This document shows, in pieces, positions 10,943-45,048 of a stretch of DNA of 46,496 nt. The stretch comes from Escherichia phage SandraMuster_Bas78: sequence record PQ850625.1, one strand, 5' to 3'. Within the stretch, counting starts at the first letter, position 1, and each line of letters starts with the position of its first letter. The notes under the pieces were generated by a model. It searched no databases and had not been told where the DNA came from. It saw only the letters and a program-made list of their open reading frames with translations. A program made the position numbers and the translations under genes.

Positions 10943-10987
10943 TTGACGTTTCTACATCACTTAGTCAATACTTATTGACGTAGATTG
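10943..10987. promoter_or_regulatory. divergent control region with two copies of the TTGACGT-TCTAC motif
   Basis: TTGACGTTTCTACATCA and TTGACGTAGATTG between divergently transcribed gene blocks. Confidence 0.45.
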
Positions 10988-11014
10988 TACCACAACGGAA
11001 AAGGTGATGTGGAA

Positions 11015-21978: not shown

Positions 21979-22349
21979 ACATGCTTGAGCTGGTTGATGC
22001 ATATCTTCAGGATGCAGGATTGTATGATGGCTGGACTTCGCAGTTGCAGTTCTGGAACGACACCGGAGATGGCAACGAGCAATTTATTGTTCTGCAATCC
22101 AATGGTGGCACGCAGGTGATGGACGGCCTCGGCGGTGACTTCTATTTCTCGCTGTACGTTGTTGGGAAACAAGGCCAGTACAATGTTGCTGATGTCGACG
22201 CTAAAGCCAATGAGATTATCGAATACATCAAGACACATCCGATTGATTCATGCGTGAACTACATCCAGTTGCAGGCTCCTCTAGGACGACCAATGTTGAC
22301 GGAGGAGAAGCGCCCTGTGCATGAGTTGCTTTTGCGGGTTGTGAAATAA
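21975..22349 (+). CDS. putative tail terminator / neck protein
   Basis: Track ORF, last gene before ORF-poor region; synteny only. Confidence 0.35.
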   Translation: MNMLELVDAYLQDAGLYDGWTSQLQFWNDTGDGNEQFIVLQSNGGTQVMDGLGGDFYFSLYVVGKQGQYNVADVDAKANEIIEYIKTHPIDSCVNYIQLQAPLGRPMLTEEKRPVHELLLRVVK

Positions 22350-22352
22350 ATA

Positions 22353-22380
22353 AAGCCGCACGAAGCGGCCTTATTGCTGG
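22353..22380 (+). terminator. weak hairpin terminator
   Basis: AGCCGCACGAAGCGGCCTT followed by ATTGCTGGTTT. Confidence 0.3.
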
Positions 22381-23025
22381 TTTAAGCATTGCCAGCATGC
22401 TTTCTTAATATCCAGCCCCGTAACCCATACATACCCCTACATATGATTGCGATAATGCTGGATATTAAGTGTTGTGGTGGCCGGTGCTGATATCCGGCAT
22501 AAGGCGCTTATTCGGCGGCGTCGAGCTTGCTTATTCGCTTGAGCCATCCTCGTGAGTCAGCCACGTCCCACTGCGCATCAGCCTGCGCATTCACCACAAC
22601 GGAAATAGCACTGGATAACCAAGCGCGCAGACTCTTCACGATTATCTGCTCAATGCTCTTACCTGTTGTGTGCCACGTTTCGTGTGGCTTACGGCAACGA
22701 CATTACCGGATTATTCGCTGCACCCTTGATGGATTTACTAAGGCGACATGCCCGTTGTTACCCACGAATGAGAGCACTATAAGTTACGCTGCCTCGGACG
22801 TACCTACGCTGCCTGTTCTTAAATACTCTCATTGGTGGGTGCCCGTTATTAATCACAGCGGGCCACTGCGCCGAATTTGTTTACAAGGAGTCGGAAGACC
22901 TTGCTGACTTACAGGCTATTACGCCGCCATCAGAACAACATCATCGTTTGCATTTATCTTTGTGGTCAGTTTCTAAAAAGTCCGCAAAGTCGCTCACGAA
23001 AACTATCTGAAATACAATCTACACC

Positions 23026-23060
23026 ACAAAATAATCACTGTCAACACCTGTGATATAATC
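23026..23060 (+). promoter_or_regulatory. extended -10 promoter upstream of major tail gene
   Basis: AATCTACACCA ... TGTCAACACC ... TGATATAAT (TGnTATAAT); near-identical element at 24535..24586. Confidence 0.5.
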
Positions 23061-23095
23061 ATCGCGTTAGCAGCTAACACAATTCGGAGATCGAA

Positions 23096-23812
23096 ATGGC
23101 TATTTGTGCAAATGATAAGGGCGTTCTGGTTGGTCGCATGACCCGCCTGTTCCTTGCTGAAGGGTGCGGCGACGCAGTTCCGGATGCAGAAGACTGGAAA
23201 TATTTAGGCTCAACCACCAGTAAAGGTGTTGACTACTCGCCGCAGACCACCACGTCGGAAGCTGATACCACTGGCGGCTTTGTTTCCACTCTCGTTACCA
23301 GCTCTGATATGACCATCAGTGCAGAGGTTGAAATCCGCAAGAATGACCCGAGCGATGAGTTTGGCTTCCATCGTCTGGTTGAGATTTACGCCACTGAACT
23401 GAAGGCGCGTCGCCAGCCTTCCTTGTGGGTGCGTCAGGTTACTGGTGCAACTATCGTTACCGCGTACTGCAACATTACCAGCATCAGTTACGAAGGTGGT
23501 ACAAACGACATCGTTACTGGCAGCCTTGAGTTTAAGGTTTACGATTCTGACAGCGTTACCGTAGAGAGCCTTGAGCCTCTGGCATTCACTACAGACCTGC
23601 CATCAACTGGCACGGCTGGCAGCCCGTTAACTGTTGCTGTTGAAGGTGGTGTCGCTCCTTACACTTATGTATGGCGCAAAGATGGCGTGGTTGTCGGCAG
23701 CGAATCAGGCGCGTCTCTGGCAATCCCTACCGCTGGCGTGTATACCGTCACGGTGACTGATTCGTCTACTGACCCTGAAATTATTATCAGCACGGCTTGC
23801 ACTGTGTCCTGA
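23096..23812 (+). CDS. major tail protein with C-terminal Ig-like domain
   Basis: 238 aa ORF upstream of chaperone/tape measure; C-terminal segment (TGTAGSPLTVAVEGGVAPYTYVW...VYTVTVTD) looks like a Big_2-type Ig domain as on lambda gpV. Confidence 0.65.
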   Translation: MAICANDKGVLVGRMTRLFLAEGCGDAVPDAEDWKYLGSTTSKGVDYSPQTTTSEADTTGGFVSTLVTSSDMTISAEVEIRKNDPSDEFGFHRLVEIYATELKARRQPSLWVRQVTGATIVTAYCNITSISYEGGTNDIVTGSLEFKVYDSDSVTVESLEPLAFTTDLPSTGTAGSPLTVAVEGGVAPYTYVWRKDGVVVGSESGASLAIPTAGVYTVTVTDSSTDPEIIISTACTVS

Positions 23813-23815
23813 TAA

Positions 23816-23846
23816 ATAAAAAAGCCCCGGAAGGGGCTTTGTTTTA
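23816..23846. terminator. bidirectional terminator between convergent genes
   Basis: AAAAAAGCCCCGGAAGGGGCTTTGTTTTA. Confidence 0.6.
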
Positions 23847-24053
23847 TTCTTGCGGTGGCTCTGGTAGTGGCATCCAGTGTGTTACGTCATCCAAGATATT
23901 TCCTGATAAATACGTGAAAGCCCTATATTTTTTGTAATCAATTGGATTTACAACCCAGTTCCAATATGCGGCTACGATTTCACCTTGACTAAATACCAAT
24001 AACATTTGGGTTTCATCCGGCATCCTTTCACTGCACTTAATCCACTGTCTCAT
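23844..24053 (-). CDS. hypothetical protein
   Basis: Track ORF in minus-strand island within the tail cluster. Confidence 0.45.
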   Translation of the reverse strand: MRQWIKCSERMPDETQMLLVFSQGEIVAAYWNWVVNPIDYKKYRAFTYLSGNILDDVTHWMPLPEPPQE

Positions 24054-24193
24054 ATCACCTTATCCTCATCAAAAATCACACCAATCACACGAAGCAAGTC
24101 TTTCGCCATGCGTTCAGCTTCTTCATAGTCGTAACCCGCATCAACATACAAATCAGTGTAGAAAATCAGGTCAGCTTTTGTTTGTTCGTTCAT
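24050..24193 (-). CDS. hypothetical small acidic protein (47 aa)
   Basis: Minus-strand ATG; stop overlaps next start (ATGA); below track cutoff. Confidence 0.3.
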   Translation of the reverse strand: MNEQTKADLIFYTDLYVDAGYDYEEAERMAKDLLRVIGVIFDEDKVI

Positions 24194-24202
24194 GGGCAAG
24201 CC

Positions 24203-24496
24203 TTACATCCCTTGCTTTTCACACAAAGAAACAGCCACATCACGCAATTGCTCTTTGGTCATATCCTTGCGTGCATAAACCATTTCTACGATAGCAAGGC
24301 CGATTATTTCTGCTGCCTCGTTGTTTTTTGCCGAGCCTTTTACTACCACCTCTGCAAGGTTTTTACTGACGCCATTATCGCGAACTTCAGCCGTGTTTAA
24401 TGCGATGTCGCCAATATTCTTGCACACCTCTGAAGTTGCTACAGCAGAGAAAGAAGAAACCAATAGTGCAGACGCAATCAACATTTTAATTTTCAT
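24203..24496 (-). CDS. small secreted/periplasmic protein
   Basis: N-terminal signal peptide MKIKMLIASALLVSSFSAVA then 77 aa soluble region; RBS GAGGTGAG. Confidence 0.5.
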   Translation of the reverse strand: MKIKMLIASALLVSSFSAVATSEVCKNIGDIALNTAEVRDNGVSKNLAEVVVKGSAKNNEAAEIIGLAIVEMVYARKDMTKEQLRDVAVSLCEKQGM

Positions 24497-24534
24497 AACT
24501 CACCTCATTCATTCATCACTCGTTTCGATGACTT

Positions 24535-24586
24535 GAATCTACATCACCACCTAACAGGTGTCAACACCACTGAGATGATATAATCA
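24535..24586 (+). promoter_or_regulatory. extended -10 promoter upstream of chaperone / tape measure operon
   Basis: AATCTACATCACC ... TGTCAACACC ... TGATATAAT, same architecture as 23026..23060. Confidence 0.5.
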
Positions 24587-24613
24587 ACATCAGTCAAATT
24601 CAGGATGCAAAAC

Positions 24614-25321
24614 ATGAGCAATCGCACGCCACTAACAGAAATCGGAGAGATGCGCATCTCGCTTTCCGACAGGAGTTTTTTCTTTAAGCCATCATTTCGC
24701 GCCATGAATGAAATCGGCACACCAAAGGAAATCGTCGAGGTGTACGCCAGACTCAATGGCATTGATTATGTTTCGCCGTTGCAGCACGTCGAATACCTGC
24801 CATTTGGCGCGCAGATGCAGGTTATGAAAACCATCAGCAAACCTGTGTATGGTCGCCATGTACTGAGTGCGGCCTATATCGTCATGCAGTCATGCTGTGA
24901 AGATAATATTTCTGTGTTGATTGGAGGATGGAAGCCAACGCCGCGTGGCGTGCGATATGTCCCCGGCATCATGCCAGTGAACGACATTATTATTATTGCG
25001 CGCAACCTGATGCAGCATGGCATCATCGGTAAGTCACCACTCAAAGTTCCTGAACGTCTGGAAGAACAGGGCAAGAAAACCACAAACGAGTTTCATGCGT
25101 CTCAATACATCATCTCAGCACGCACGCATTTCGACATGACGCGCGATGAGGCAGAAAACCTGTCTATGACAGAGTTTCAGATGATGATTAAGAATAAATA
25201 TCCAGAGCCGAAAGGGTTAACGAAAGAAGAGCGCGCGGCAGAGTACGATCAGGCTAAAGCAGACCGTGAGCGCATGAAGGCACTGGCTGAACGCAAAGCG
25301 AAAAAAGCGAGGAATACATAA
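24614..25321 (+). CDS. putative tail assembly chaperone
   Basis: ORF immediately upstream of tape measure; ATG at 24614 has AGGA upstream (track start 24605 also ATG); basic C-terminus. Confidence 0.4.
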   Translation: MSNRTPLTEIGEMRISLSDRSFFFKPSFRAMNEIGTPKEIVEVYARLNGIDYVSPLQHVEYLPFGAQMQVMKTISKPVYGRHVLSAAYIVMQSCCEDNISVLIGGWKPTPRGVRYVPGIMPVNDIIIIARNLMQHGIIGKSPLKVPERLEEQGKKTTNEFHASQYIISARTHFDMTRDEAENLSMTEFQMMIKNKYPEPKGLTKEERAAEYDQAKADRERMKALAERKAKKARNT

Positions 25322-44604: not shown

Positions 44605-45048
44605 ATTATGATTGAATCATATCATAAGTATTGAATCATGCAACATCAAATACGACTCACGTGGGTAACGTGGGGCAGCCGTGGGGAACATCACCTTCCC
44701 CACGAACTTTTACTCTAAGTATATGTAATATAATATAATTATTATTATTTGGGTTAATGGGTAATATTATTATTCATATTATAGATAGTAATTAACATAA
44801 TATTAACAAATGGATTATTTGAATATATTTATAAGGGGATGGGTATGAAATCTGCCCCTTTTTACCCACGAAAAATAAAAACATTCAAATCAATAATTTA
44901 CGATGAAAAACGTGGGGCAACCAACCTTCCCCACGACCTGCCCCACGAGCAAAAATTTACCCCACGGGCACGTTTTTAACGCATCCCTGTTGACGTAGAA
45001 TCATCGTTGATGTAGATTGAACTCATCGAAACAAACGAGGGTGAAGAG
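44605..45048. repeat. origin-like non-coding region: CGTGGGG/CCCCACG iterons flanking an AT-rich core
   Basis: About nine copies of the CGTGGG(G) core in both orientations around an approx. 130 bp strongly AT-rich stretch (44710..44845); ATTGAATCAT direct repeat; two TTGAYGTAGA motif copies at 3' edge. Confidence 0.5.

What the first reader, a model, noticed from the sequence alone, without database searches (positions are those of the whole stretch)
23026..24586. Two near-identical extended -10 promoters driving the tail operons
At 23026..23060 and 24535..24586 the same architecture recurs: AATCTACAYCA, then TGTCAACACC, then TGATATAAT (TGn-extended -10), about 35-45 bp upstream of the major tail gene and the chaperone/tape-measure gene. 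The TGTCAAC element is too close to the -10 to be a normal -35, suggesting an extended -10 promoter with an upstream factor-binding site, possibly late-gene activation.
Basis: seen in the sequence. Interest (0 to 1): 0.5.

Follow-up and report, generated by a model that had tools for sequence, protein, structure and literature searches.

The report
Back-to-back promoters flanking tail genes
The two repeated blocks are most likely pairs of back-to-back host-type promoters: one fires rightward into tail genes, the other fires leftward into inserted accessory cargo, which at one site is an unannotated tmRNA-like RNA shared by many enterobacterial phages.

Summary
AATCTACAYCA, TGTCAACACC and TGATATAAT occur in that order at 23016-23059 and 24536-24584, and the last two are found nowhere else in the window. 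TGATATAAT is a credible TGn-extended -10 promoter without a -35, one of about 10 such elements that sit 12-40 nt upstream of the structural and lysis operons. The two upstream blocks are not an activator site. On the minus strand they read TTGACA-17 nt-TAGATT, a near-consensus sigma-70 promoter pointing the other way. In 34 relatives both hexamers are invariant while the spacer varies. Homology to the left breaks exactly at the leftward -10. The gap between TGTCAA and the rightward TG varies (0, 2, 6, 11 nt). At site 2 the leftward promoter faces a three-gene accessory cassette that ends at a bidirectional terminator. At site 1 it starts at the conserved 5' edge of a structured non-coding RNA. 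That RNA carries a tmRNA-type 10-codon tag frame (ANDDVVLMAA), a stop codon in a hairpin and two covarying pseudoknots, but no tRNA-like domain. It occurs in Ackermannviridae, FelixO1-like, G7C-like, P1 and lambdoid phages and in 12% of complete E. coli genomes, with no RNA annotation under any match listed. All evidence is computational.

The parts
23039..23044 (-).
   Evidence: 6 of 6 match to consensus, 17 nt from TAGATT. One variable column among 33 sequences. Kept in the distant Klebsiella phage KpV2811 although the spacer differs.
23016..23021 (-).
   Evidence: Invariant in 32 of 34 relatives. Homology to the left breaks exactly here, with at least 4 unrelated flanks. The -10 ends 14 nt before the module's TTTCGT in 12 loci, and an unrelated promoter in L119 (TTGACA-17-TATTGT) ends at the same distance.
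23051..23059 (+). Site 1 rightward extended -10 promoter TGATATAAT, with no -35, for the major tail gene.
   Evidence: Perfect TGnTATAAT; best -35 is 3 of 6. No variable columns; retained in L034/L035, which lack the upstream blocks.
23096..23812 (+). Major tail protein gene: its own transcription unit between the 23051 promoter and the 23821-23840 terminator.
   Evidence: phrog_853 major tail protein, E = 7.6e-87; annotation of relatives.
22841..23006 (-). tmRNA-like RNA module, the first cargo of the site 1 leftward promoter. Tag frame 22951-22922 (GCA AAC GAT GAT GTT GTT CTG ATG GCG GCG = ANDDVVLMAA), stops TAA TAG at 22921-22916. Helix-5-like CUGA 22933-22930 / UCAG 22907-22904. Hairpin CAAGG 22903-22899 / CCUUG 22888-22884, whose loop CCGA 22894-22891 pairs with UCGG 22874-22871. 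Hairpin CAGU 22868-22865 / GCUG 22859-22856, whose loop GCCC 22863-22860 pairs with GGGC 22844-22841.
   Evidence: Sub-threshold Rfam tmRNA hits centred on the tag. ARAGORN reads the same frame as a tmRNA tag in Moogle. 126 copies all have 10 codons plus a stop, with an in-frame UAG 8 codons upstream and no start codon between. Covariation: 91.8% of cells paired against 33-50% when slid, 17 of 22 pairs with double changes, 0 of 500 shuffles.
22345..23009 (-). Whole predicted leftward transcript of site 1: the tmRNA-like module, two long conserved-stem hairpin units (about 22843-22757 and 22676-22593), a 13-bp stem (22469-22457 / 22416-22404), then the terminator hairpin 22369-22355 followed by UUUAUUUAUUU.
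   Evidence: No credible ORF. MFE z = -4.0. Sequence read. Relatives carry tRNA-Met/Ile/Ser/Arg on this strand in the same slot. No tRNA and no T-arm in the window.
24559..24564 (-). Site 2 leftward promoter, -35 hexamer TTGACA.
   Evidence: 10 of 12, spacer 17. No variable columns among 33 sequences, while 11 of 17 spacer columns vary.
24536..24541 (-). Site 2 leftward promoter, -10 hexamer TAGATT.
   Evidence: No variable columns. 40 nt upstream of the orf97 start, with a GAGGTGAG Shine-Dalgarno. The -10 and leader resemble the 44990(+) promoter (TAGATTgaactcatcgaaac against TAGATTcaagtcatcgaaac).
23844..24496 (-). Site 2 leftward cargo: three accessory genes (97-aa secreted-looking protein 24496-24203; 49 aa 24199-24050; 69-aa DUF551 24053-23844).
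   Evidence: ORFs. phrog_2315, phrog_17424 and DUF551. Gene content differs among relatives: Bas77 and Sf11 also have an Imm gene here.
23821..23840 (.). Bidirectional intrinsic terminator that ends both the major tail transcript and the leftward cassette.
   Evidence: Found on both strands, 8-bp stem with T runs.
24576..24584 (+). Site 2 rightward extended -10 promoter TGATATAAT, with no -35, for the DUF6246 gene (tail-chaperone position) and the tape measure gene.
   Evidence: Best -35 is 1 of 6. No variable columns. Downstream gene is DUF6246, E = 5.9e-73; tape measure annotation.

Best explanation
Each site is a compact bidirectional promoter module of about 70 bp, read by the host sigma-70 RNA polymerase. 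The rightward half is a TGn-extended -10 promoter (TGATATAAT, no -35). It restarts transcription of a tail unit after an upstream terminator, and it is one member of a genome-wide class that heads the structural and lysis operons. The leftward half is a near-consensus -35/-10 promoter (TTGACA, 17 nt, TAGATT). At site 2 the cargo is three small accessory genes. At site 1 it is a non-coding RNA cassette of about 660 nt whose first 165 nt are a tmRNA-like RNA; relatives also carry tRNAs in this slot. Shown by sequence analysis: the elements, their geometry, their conservation pattern, the cargo and the terminators. Inferred: that they are active; the start sites (about 23009 and 24529 leftward, about 23066 and 24591 rightward); that the promoters with a -35 are early or accessory and the extended -10 ones are late; and that the two halves, whose start sites lie only 51-62 bp apart, compete for polymerase.
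For: (1) Both sites are the top sigma-70 matches in 20-28 kb on the minus strand: TTGACA-17-TAGATT, 10 of 12.
(2) Footprint across 33 sequences at site 2, as variable columns: 0 of 6 (-10 leftward), 11 of 17 (spacer), 0 of 6 (-35 leftward), 5 of 11 (gap), 0 of 9 (TGnTATAAT).
(3) The leftward spacer stays at 16-18 nt in all variants, while the TGTCAA-to-TG gap is 0 (L004/L027), 2 (KpV2811), 6 (site 1) or 11 nt (site 2).
(4) At site 1, homology among relatives breaks exactly at the leftward -10, with at least 4 different cargo flanks.
(5) The leftward cargo is on the right strand and ends at terminators.
(6) The site 1 -10 ends 14 nt before the module's TTTCGT. Sequence conservation of the RNA module begins there in about 100 copies from unrelated phages that lack this promoter. 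L119 has a different sigma-70 promoter ending at the same 14 nt.
(7) Extended -10 elements: 10 of 38 lie 10-45 nt upstream of same-strand starts, against 1.24 expected (P = 2.7e-7). Promoters with a -35: 7 of 38 (P = 2e-4). These face small accessory, early-looking or DNA-metabolism genes.
(8) No open reading frame other than the tape measure and a tail protein exceeds 800 aa, and nothing is annotated as a polymerase or sigma factor, so host polymerase is expected.
Against: There are no transcript data for this phage group, so every promoter is a prediction. TAGATT matches TATAAT at only 4 of 6 positions. Genome-wide counts of both promoter patterns are not above random (38 against 35.7 and 26.7 in Markov controls); the signal lies only in their placement. 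Conservation around the leftward -10 extends beyond the hexamer (GAATCTACATCAC is invariant), and AATCTACRYCA is dispersed in both orientations relative to promoters. The -10 reading alone does not explain this. At site 1 the window's cargo has no protein gene or tRNA, so a function for that transcript rests on the RNA analysis.
Confidence: 0.75

Rival explanations
1. One reading: AATCTACA and TGTCAAC are binding sites for a phage or host activator that switches on the extended -10 tail promoters late in infection.
For: The blocks are conserved and lie just upstream of promoters that lack a -35. Conservation at AATCTACATCAC exceeds a bare hexamer.
Against: The distance from TGTCAA to the TG is 0, 2, 6 or 11 nt, while its distance to TAGATT is fixed at 16-18 nt. 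The other roughly 8 extended -10 promoters lack TGTCAACACC. L034 and L035 keep the promoter and leader without TGTCAAC. The blocks are a 10-of-12 sigma-70 promoter on the other strand with cargo behind it.
Confidence: 0.08
2. AATCTACRYCA (TGRYGTAGATT) is also an operator for a phage-encoded regulator. It overlaps the -10 or sits next to the -35 of the promoters that have a -35. Binding would shut those promoters off and, by relieving competition, favour the overlapping extended -10 promoters. This can hold together with the main explanation.
For: 14 copies against 2.1 expected. 8 of 13 core 7-mers lie in 6% of the genome. Copies often come in pairs, direct or inverted, 17-31 bp apart inside promoter regions (8102/8129, 10949/10976, 19837/19868, 2701/2724, 44991/45008). 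The conserved block is longer than a hexamer.
Against: No regulator was identified. The motif appears in several registers relative to the hexamers. Part of its excess has a simpler explanation: TATAATCTA reads as a -10 in both directions (TATAAT rightward, TAGATT leftward). Several copies lie inside genes.
Confidence: 0.2
3. The shared blocks are non-functional remnants of a duplication or of recombination at the edges of inserted cassettes.
For: Homology breakpoints coincide with the left edge of the block at site 1. The two sites flank mobile-looking cargo.
Against: Neutral remnants would not keep exactly the two hexamers and the TGnTATAAT invariant while 11 of 17 spacer columns vary. They would not keep 16-18 nt spacing across Escherichia, Salmonella and Klebsiella phages.
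Confidence: 0.04

Closest known systems
Morons of lambdoid and HK97-like phages: a promoter, gene(s) and terminator inserted between late genes (from my own knowledge of Juhala/Hendrix; not checked in a paper here).
   Same: The leftward units are a sigma-70 promoter, variable cargo and a terminator wedged between conserved tail genes, and cargo content differs among close relatives.
   Different: The units are antisense to the late genes. They are fused back-to-back with the promoter that restarts the late operon. One carries RNA genes (a tmRNA-like RNA, and tRNAs in relatives) instead of a protein.
Extended -10 (TGn) promoters that need no -35. Phages use this class for middle or late genes while blocking -35 recognition, for example Thermus phage P23-45 gp39/gp76 and T4 AsiA (from my own knowledge; a lead, not tested).
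   Same: Perfect TGnTATAAT, no -35, placed ahead of structural and lysis operons, while accessory or early-looking genes have promoters with a -35.
   Different: No anti-sigma or appropriator protein was identified in this phage, and the timing of either class is unknown.
Two-piece (permuted) tmRNA coding piece, and phage-borne tmRNAs of mycobacteriophages and Bacillus phage G, including the domain-only RNA of DS6A (PMC4131195).
   Same: Resume-type context AUAAAU-GCA, a 10-codon AN[DE]...A tag frame, a stop codon in a hairpin, then two pseudoknots. Weak hits to Rfam tmRNA models. ARAGORN reads the tag in Moogle.
   Different: No tRNA-like domain in the window. All Rfam scores are below gathering (at most 33.4 against 47). 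Tags end in MAA, VAA or AVA, not LAA. The hosts are Enterobacterales phages, where no phage tmRNA is listed in PMC4131195.

Membership tests
Sigma-70 -35/-10 promoter (leftward halves) | TTGACA-like -35 and TATAAT-like -10 (A at position 2, T at position 6), spaced 17 +/- 1 nt | tested here: met
   TTGACA (6 of 6), 17 nt, TAGATT (4 of 6) at both sites. Spacing is 16-18 nt in all relatives.
Sigma-70 -35/-10 promoter (leftward halves) | Hexamers conserved and spacer free to vary among relatives | tested here: met
   Site 2: 0 of 6 and 0 of 6 variable columns in the hexamers against 11 of 17 in the spacer. KpV2811 and L082 keep the hexamers with different spacers.
Sigma-70 -35/-10 promoter (leftward halves) | A same-strand transcription unit immediately downstream | tested here: met
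   orf97 starts 40 nt downstream at site 2. The conserved 5' edge of the RNA module lies 14 nt after the -10 at site 1.
Sigma-70 -35/-10 promoter (leftward halves) | Mapped transcription start and dependence on the hexamers | not testable with these tools
   No transcript data were found for the group.
Extended -10 (TGn) promoter (rightward halves) | TG at -15/-14 directly upstream of a strong -10, with no -35 | tested here: met
   TGATATAAT at both sites; best -35 is 3 of 6 and 1 of 6.
Extended -10 (TGn) promoter (rightward halves) | Placement upstream of genes beyond chance | tested here: met
   10 of 38 such elements lie 10-45 nt upstream of same-strand starts against 1.24 expected, P = 2.7e-7.
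Activator-dependent late promoter | Activator site at a fixed distance from the -10 and shared by the regulon | tested here: not met
   The gap is 0, 2, 6 or 11 nt. TGTCAACACC is absent from the other extended -10 promoters. L034 and L035 lack it.
Moron | Own promoter and terminator around cargo that varies among otherwise collinear relatives | tested here: met
   Promoters. Terminators at 23821-23840 and 22369-22355 followed by a U run. Variable cargo.
tmRNA | Tag reading frame entered without a start codon and ending at a stop, with a C-terminal Ala-rich tag | tested here: met
   126 of 126 copies have 10 codons plus a stop, an in-frame UAG 8 codons upstream and no AUG, GUG or UUG between. 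17 peptides from 32 DNA versions. Third codon positions vary most.
tmRNA | Stop codon in helix 5, followed by pseudoknots | tested here: met
   6 helices, 91.8% of cells paired against 33-50% when slid, 17 of 22 pairs with compensatory changes.
tmRNA | PK1 immediately upstream of the resume codon | tested here: inconclusive
   CUUUG/CAAAG can pair in most copies, but the ECBP1-type copies pair in a different register.
tmRNA | tRNA-like domain: acceptor stem with G3-U70, T-arm and a CCA end | tested here: not met
   ARAGORN finds none in the window. There is no GGTTCGANTCC in the cassette. In KpS110 an upstream T-arm aligns but both acceptor strands are deleted. ARAGORN's domain in Moogle borrows parts of neighbouring tRNAs.
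tmRNA | Reaches Rfam's curated score | tested here: not met
   Best scores are 27.3 (window) and 33.4 (ECBP1) bits against a gathering score of 47.
tmRNA | Alanylation, SmpB binding and tagging of proteins | not testable with these tools
   These need experiments.

The most novel reading that the evidence does not exclude
The site 1 leftward promoter expresses a previously undescribed class of phage RNA. It has a tmRNA body (tag frame, helix 5, pseudoknots) without its own acceptor domain, and it is spread by horizontal transfer among unrelated Enterobacterales phages, P1-type plasmids and lambdoid prophages. If the tag frame is really decoded, for example with an acceptor part supplied in trans by a tRNA-like unit of the same RNA islands or by the host, phages would be re-tagging rescued host or phage proteins with ...MAA, ...VAA or ...AVA ends in place of the host's ...LAA end. 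A second reading that is not excluded: AATCTACRYCA is the operator of a phage timing regulator.
Probability: 0.25. Interest if true: 0.85.

Novelty: new member of a known kind. Interest (0 to 1): 0.45.

Why it matters
For the promoters: the analysis gives a testable transcription map for an uncharacterised but common group of E. coli, Salmonella and Klebsiella siphoviruses (the Skatevirus/Cedarrivervirus cluster, which is used in phage collections and in engineering). The map has two promoter classes that separate accessory or early-looking genes from structural and lysis genes, and overlapping divergent pairs that could act as a simple early/late competition switch. It also corrects the annotation: the 'hypothetical proteins' placed over 22389-22907 are most likely not genes. 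For the cargo: a structured RNA with a tmRNA-type tag frame, present in 656 of 5426 complete E. coli genomes and in at least five unrelated phage lineages, with no RNA annotation under any match listed. It deserves direct study whether or not it proves to act in ribosome rescue.

Tried and rejected
1. I read TGTCAAC as a misplaced -35 or activator box for the + strand. Rejected because of the variable spacing and the minus-strand reading.
2. I looked for tRNA or tmRNA genes in the window with ARAGORN and with Rfam at gathering threshold. Neither found anything.
3. I treated the 126-aa ORF 22527-22907(+), annotated as a hypothetical protein in Bas77, as a gene. Rejected: the sequence is Cys/Arg-rich and junk-like, and the region is a conserved structured RNA on the other strand.
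4. I searched for a long-range partner of the invariant GCGACUUUGCGG and for T-arm/CCA ends, to find an acceptor piece. No consistent partner turned up. T-arms occur near the module in some phages but not in the window.
5. ARAGORN's permuted tmRNA in Moogle: the tag call is credible, but its tRNA-like domain is assembled from neighbouring tRNAs, so I did not use it as evidence for a complete tmRNA.
6. A PK1-like helix just before the resume codon: the apparent covariation needs a register shift, so I do not claim it.
7. DnaA-box, IHF and CRP readings of the blocks, by eye: poor matches, dropped.
8. Literature searches for Cedarrivervirus, Skatevirus promoters and phage tmRNA-like RNAs gave no relevant description. 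The 'tmRNA' hits in Ackermannviridae papers were only ARAGORN citations. The P1 genome paper is not held.
9. Genome-wide counts of the promoter patterns are not above random. Only their placement is.
Full report
OBSERVATION. AATCTACACCA is at 23016-23026, TGTCAACACC at 23039-23048 and TGATATAAT at 23051-23059, ahead of the major tail ATG at 23096. AATCTACATCA is at 24536-24546, TGTCAACACC at 24559-24568 and TGATATAAT at 24576-24584, ahead of the next rightward gene. That gene most likely starts at 24614, which has an AGGA Shine-Dalgarno and matches the Bas77 annotation, not at the first ATG at 24605. Exact TGTCAACACC and exact TGATATAAT occur only at these two places in the window. AATCTACRYCA is different: it has 14 copies with at most 1 mismatch against 2.1 expected.

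IDENTITY OF THE WINDOW. The window is collinear over its whole length with Escherichia phage Bas77, and the tail region is about 94% identical. It belongs to the Skatevirus/Cedarrivervirus cluster of E. coli, Shigella and Salmonella siphoviruses (PMC11990801). I found no promoter or transcript data for this group. No gene is annotated as an RNA polymerase or sigma factor. Only the tape measure and a tail protein exceed 800 aa, so transcription by the host polymerase is the working assumption.

THE UPSTREAM BLOCKS ARE A PROMOTER ON THE OTHER STRAND. TGTCAA is the reverse complement of TTGACA, and AATCTA of TAGATT. On the minus strand both sites read TTGACA, 17 nt, TAGATT. These are the two best sigma-70 matches (10 of 12) in 20-28 kb. 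I collected 34 relatives through the major tail protein.

At site 2, the 33 sequences that can be aligned without gaps show no variable columns in either leftward hexamer, 11 of 17 in the spacer between them, 5 of 11 in the stretch up to the rightward TG, and none in TGATATAAT. That is the footprint expected of two divergent promoters.

At site 1 the close relatives vary less, but homology to the left stops exactly at AATCTA, with at least four unrelated flanks. More distant Klebsiella phages keep TTGACA and TAGATT with a different spacer of 16-17 nt.

The distance from TGTCAA to the rightward TG is 0 nt (L004/L027), 2 nt (KpV2811), 6 nt (site 1) or 11 nt (site 2). An element that worked for the rightward promoter would be expected to hold its distance to that promoter. 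This one holds its distance to TAGATT instead.

L034 and L035 lack TGTCAAC and keep TGTGATATAAT with its leader. They have a different leftward protein gene whose own TATCTACATCA-type -10 lies about 40 bp further left.

WHAT THE LEFTWARD PROMOTERS FACE. At site 2 the -10 lies 40 nt upstream of a minus-strand cassette of three small genes: a 97-aa secreted-looking protein, a 49-aa protein and a 69-aa DUF551 protein. The cassette ends at a bidirectional terminator at 23821-23840. Relatives carry different gene sets here, including an Imm superinfection-immunity gene that the window lacks.

At site 1 the 650 nt to the left have no credible ORF, and they end at a hairpin (22369-22355) followed by UUUAUUUAUUU on the minus strand. 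Most relatives have tRNA-Met, Ile, Ser or Arg on that strand in this slot. The window has none. Both leftward units therefore have the anatomy of morons: promoter, variable cargo, terminator.

THE RIGHTWARD PROMOTERS. TGATATAAT is a perfect TGnTATAAT with no -35 (best 3 of 6 and 1 of 6). It is not special to the tail. TGn plus a -10 matching at 5 or more of 6 positions occurs 12-40 nt upstream of the genes at 670 (terminase operon), 4395 (portal), 8185 (lysis), 13735 and 13874 (head), 19927 (connector operon), 23096, 24614, 32564 (tail fibre) and 44604 (minus strand). Ten of 38 such elements lie 10-45 nt upstream of a same-strand start against 1.24 expected (P = 2.7e-7). A further element (TGGTACAAT, 10984-10992 on the minus strand) sits 69 nt upstream of the 10915 start, outside that zone.

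Intergenic promoters that do have a good -35 face small accessory, early-looking or DNA-metabolism genes: 2695(+), 8140(-), 10943(+), 19879(-), 44990(+) and the two leftward tail promoters. The split into a -35-dependent class and an extended -10 class is a sequence observation. Calling them early and late is inference from gene content.

At 8.1, 19.9, 23.0 and 24.5 kb the two classes are fused back to back, with predicted start sites only 51-62 bp apart. The two polymerases would then overlap. I infer competition. From general knowledge, factors that block -35 recognition (T4 AsiA, P23-45 gp39) spare extended -10 promoters, so this is a plausible way to switch classes. No such factor was identified here.

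THE DISPERSED MOTIF. AATCTACRYCA is concentrated in promoter regions. Eight of the 13 core 7-mers lie in the 6.2% of the genome that is intergenic (P about 7e-7). It appears in several registers:
- as spacer end plus -10 (TGAYG-TAGATT: 23021, 24541, 45012);
- directly after a -35 (TTGAC-GTAGATT: 8140, 19879);
- in the opposite orientation after a -35 (2695, 10943);
- directly after a rightward -10 (TAYAAT-CTACRTCA: 2724, 10976, 24582, 32528).

Part of the excess follows from TATAATCTA being a -10 in both directions. The rest is not explained, including the invariant GAATCTACATCAC at site 2. A regulator site remains possible.

THE CARGO AT SITE 1. The predicted transcript folds well below shuffled controls (z = -4.0). 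The only Rfam hits in 22300-23100 with E below 0.01 are two sub-threshold tmRNA matches, centred on AUAAAU GCA AAC GAU GAU GUU GUU CUG AUG GCG GCG UAA UAG.

The first 165 nt or so, starting at the predicted start site, recur in unrelated phages:
- Ackermannviridae (Marshall, KpS110);
- FelixO1-like phages (Moogle);
- G7C-like phages (ECBP1);
- P1, between the Pban/dicF-like region and trnA;
- lambdoid phages, between PR'/qut and the holin gene;
- a phage of the family Grimontviridae (pSal-SNUABM-01).

The module is also in 656 of 5426 complete E. coli genomes, and no RNA annotation lies under any of the listed matches. Only 4 of 185,579 species-representative genomes hold the exact search pattern, three of them Enterobacterales.

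All 126 copies examined have exactly 10 codons and a stop, an in-frame UAG 8 codons upstream, and no AUG, GUG or UUG in between. Thirty-two DNA versions encode 17 peptides of the form AN[DE][DEN]xx[LMR]xxA. ANDDVVLMAA alone is encoded in eight ways, and third codon positions vary most. ARAGORN reads the Moogle copy as a tmRNA tag, ANDNVFLAVA**.

On an alignment of 45 diverse copies (A1) I tested six helices: a helix around the stop codon, and two hairpins whose loops pair downstream. They are 91.8% paired against 33-50% when partners are slid. Seventeen of 22 pairs have compensatory changes, and 0 of 500 shuffles reach the observed values. This is the layout of a tmRNA body.

The defining tRNA-like domain is missing, however. 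The window has no T-arm and no acceptor. In KpS110 an upstream T-arm aligns to the permuted-tmRNA model with both acceptor strands deleted. All Rfam scores are below gathering. I therefore do not file it as a tmRNA. It works like one on paper only as far as the tag frame and the pseudoknots go.

Phage tmRNAs listed in the literature I could reach are from mycobacteriophages and Bacillus phage G (PMC4131195). I found no description of this module, but my library is incomplete.

HOW THE RNA BEARS ON THE FINDING. In the roughly 100 copies without a promoter directly upstream, sequence conservation begins at (GAU)AGUUUUCGU. In the 12 Skatevirus-like loci the TAGATT ends 14 nt before TTTCGT. In L119 an unrelated TTGACA-17-TATTGT also ends 14 nt before it. 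A promoter placed to start at the conserved 5' edge of an RNA gene, twice independently, is the strongest comparative argument that the leftward promoter is real.

VERDICT. The extended -10 promoters are plausible and form a genome-wide class. The 'upstream factor site' is better explained as a divergent sigma-70 promoter for inserted cargo. The promoter architecture is an ordinary kind of thing in a phage group where it had not been described. The RNA it drives at site 1 is the unusual part and needs experiments.

Noticed in passing
window 22841-23006 (-): A tmRNA-like RNA module. It has a 10-codon tag frame (ANDDVVLMAA, stops at 22921-22916), a stop codon in a covarying hairpin and two covarying pseudoknots, but no tRNA-like domain. 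It occurs in Ackermannviridae, FelixO1-like, G7C-like, P1/P7 and lambdoid phages and in 656 of 5426 E. coli genomes, with no RNA annotation under any match listed.
   Followed up: yes
window about 22843-22757 and 22676-22593 (-); also L038 (P1), L042, L045, L070 and others: Long hairpin units bounded by conserved strands (GGTAAGAGCATTG ... CAGTGCTCTTTCC). They recur next to the tmRNA-like module in many phages. In some phages the insert holds a T-arm and an extra arm, forming a tRNA-like unit without a D-arm. In the GGGCATTGG variant a G-U pair could fall at acceptor position 3:70. In the window the inserts have no T-arm. Function unknown: possibly processing sites or stand-alone acceptor-like RNAs.
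   Followed up: partly
window 611, 2701, 2724, 8102, 8129, 10949, 10976, 19837, 19868, 23016, 24536, 24582, 28495, 32528, 37871, 41040, 44991, 45008: The dispersed motif AATCTACRYCA is concentrated in promoter regions, in both orientations and often in pairs 17-31 bp apart. The sequence TATAATCTA reads as a -10 in both directions. Conservation beyond the hexamers is unexplained and may mark a regulator site.
   Followed up: partly
window 625, 4352, 8150, 13708, 13834, 19888, 32522 (+); 10992, 44624 (-): The other members of the extended -10 promoter class (TGnTAnnAT, no -35) sit ahead of the terminase, portal, lysis, head, connector and tail-fibre operons and two minus-strand units. At 8.1 and 19.9 kb they are fused back to back with TTGACG-17-(C/T)ATAGT promoters, like the two tail sites.
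   Followed up: partly
window 22389-22490 (+) and 22527-22907 (+): Bas77 annotates hypothetical proteins over the equivalents of these ORFs. The translations look non-protein-like, and the DNA is a conserved structured RNA on the opposite strand, so these are probably mis-annotations.
   Followed up: partly
window 22469-22457 / 22416-22404 (-): A perfect 13-bp stem (CUUAAUAUCCAGC / GCUGGAUAUUAAG) encloses about 40 nt near the 3' end of the RNA cassette, in the position where relatives carry tRNA genes.
   Followed up: no
L038 (P1, NC_005856 68899-68976): In P1 the module lies between the annotated 'dicF-like region' downstream of the C1-controlled Pban promoters and trnA/trnT. It would therefore be under lysogenic repressor control there and co-transcribed with tRNAs.
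   Followed up: no
L043 2202-2415 (Klebsiella phage KpS110): An Rfam STnc100 sRNA hit above gathering (48.7 against 47 bits) lies about 900 nt downstream of the tmRNA-like module in an Ackermannviridae phage.
   Followed up: no
window 44990-45048 (+) compared with 24529-24497 (-): The 44990(+) promoter and the site 2 leftward promoter share not only TAGATT but also the leader (TCATCGAAAC...). This suggests the promoter-plus-leader unit was duplicated or moved between an early-looking region and the tail region.
   Followed up: no
L034 and L035, about 60-200 nt upstream of the major tail gene: These two relatives replace the RNA cargo and its TTGACA/TAGATT promoter with a minus-strand protein gene. 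That gene has its own TATCTACATCA-type -10 and a hairpin (GCAAGCAAGGTTGCTTG) abutting TGTGATATAAT.
   Followed up: partly
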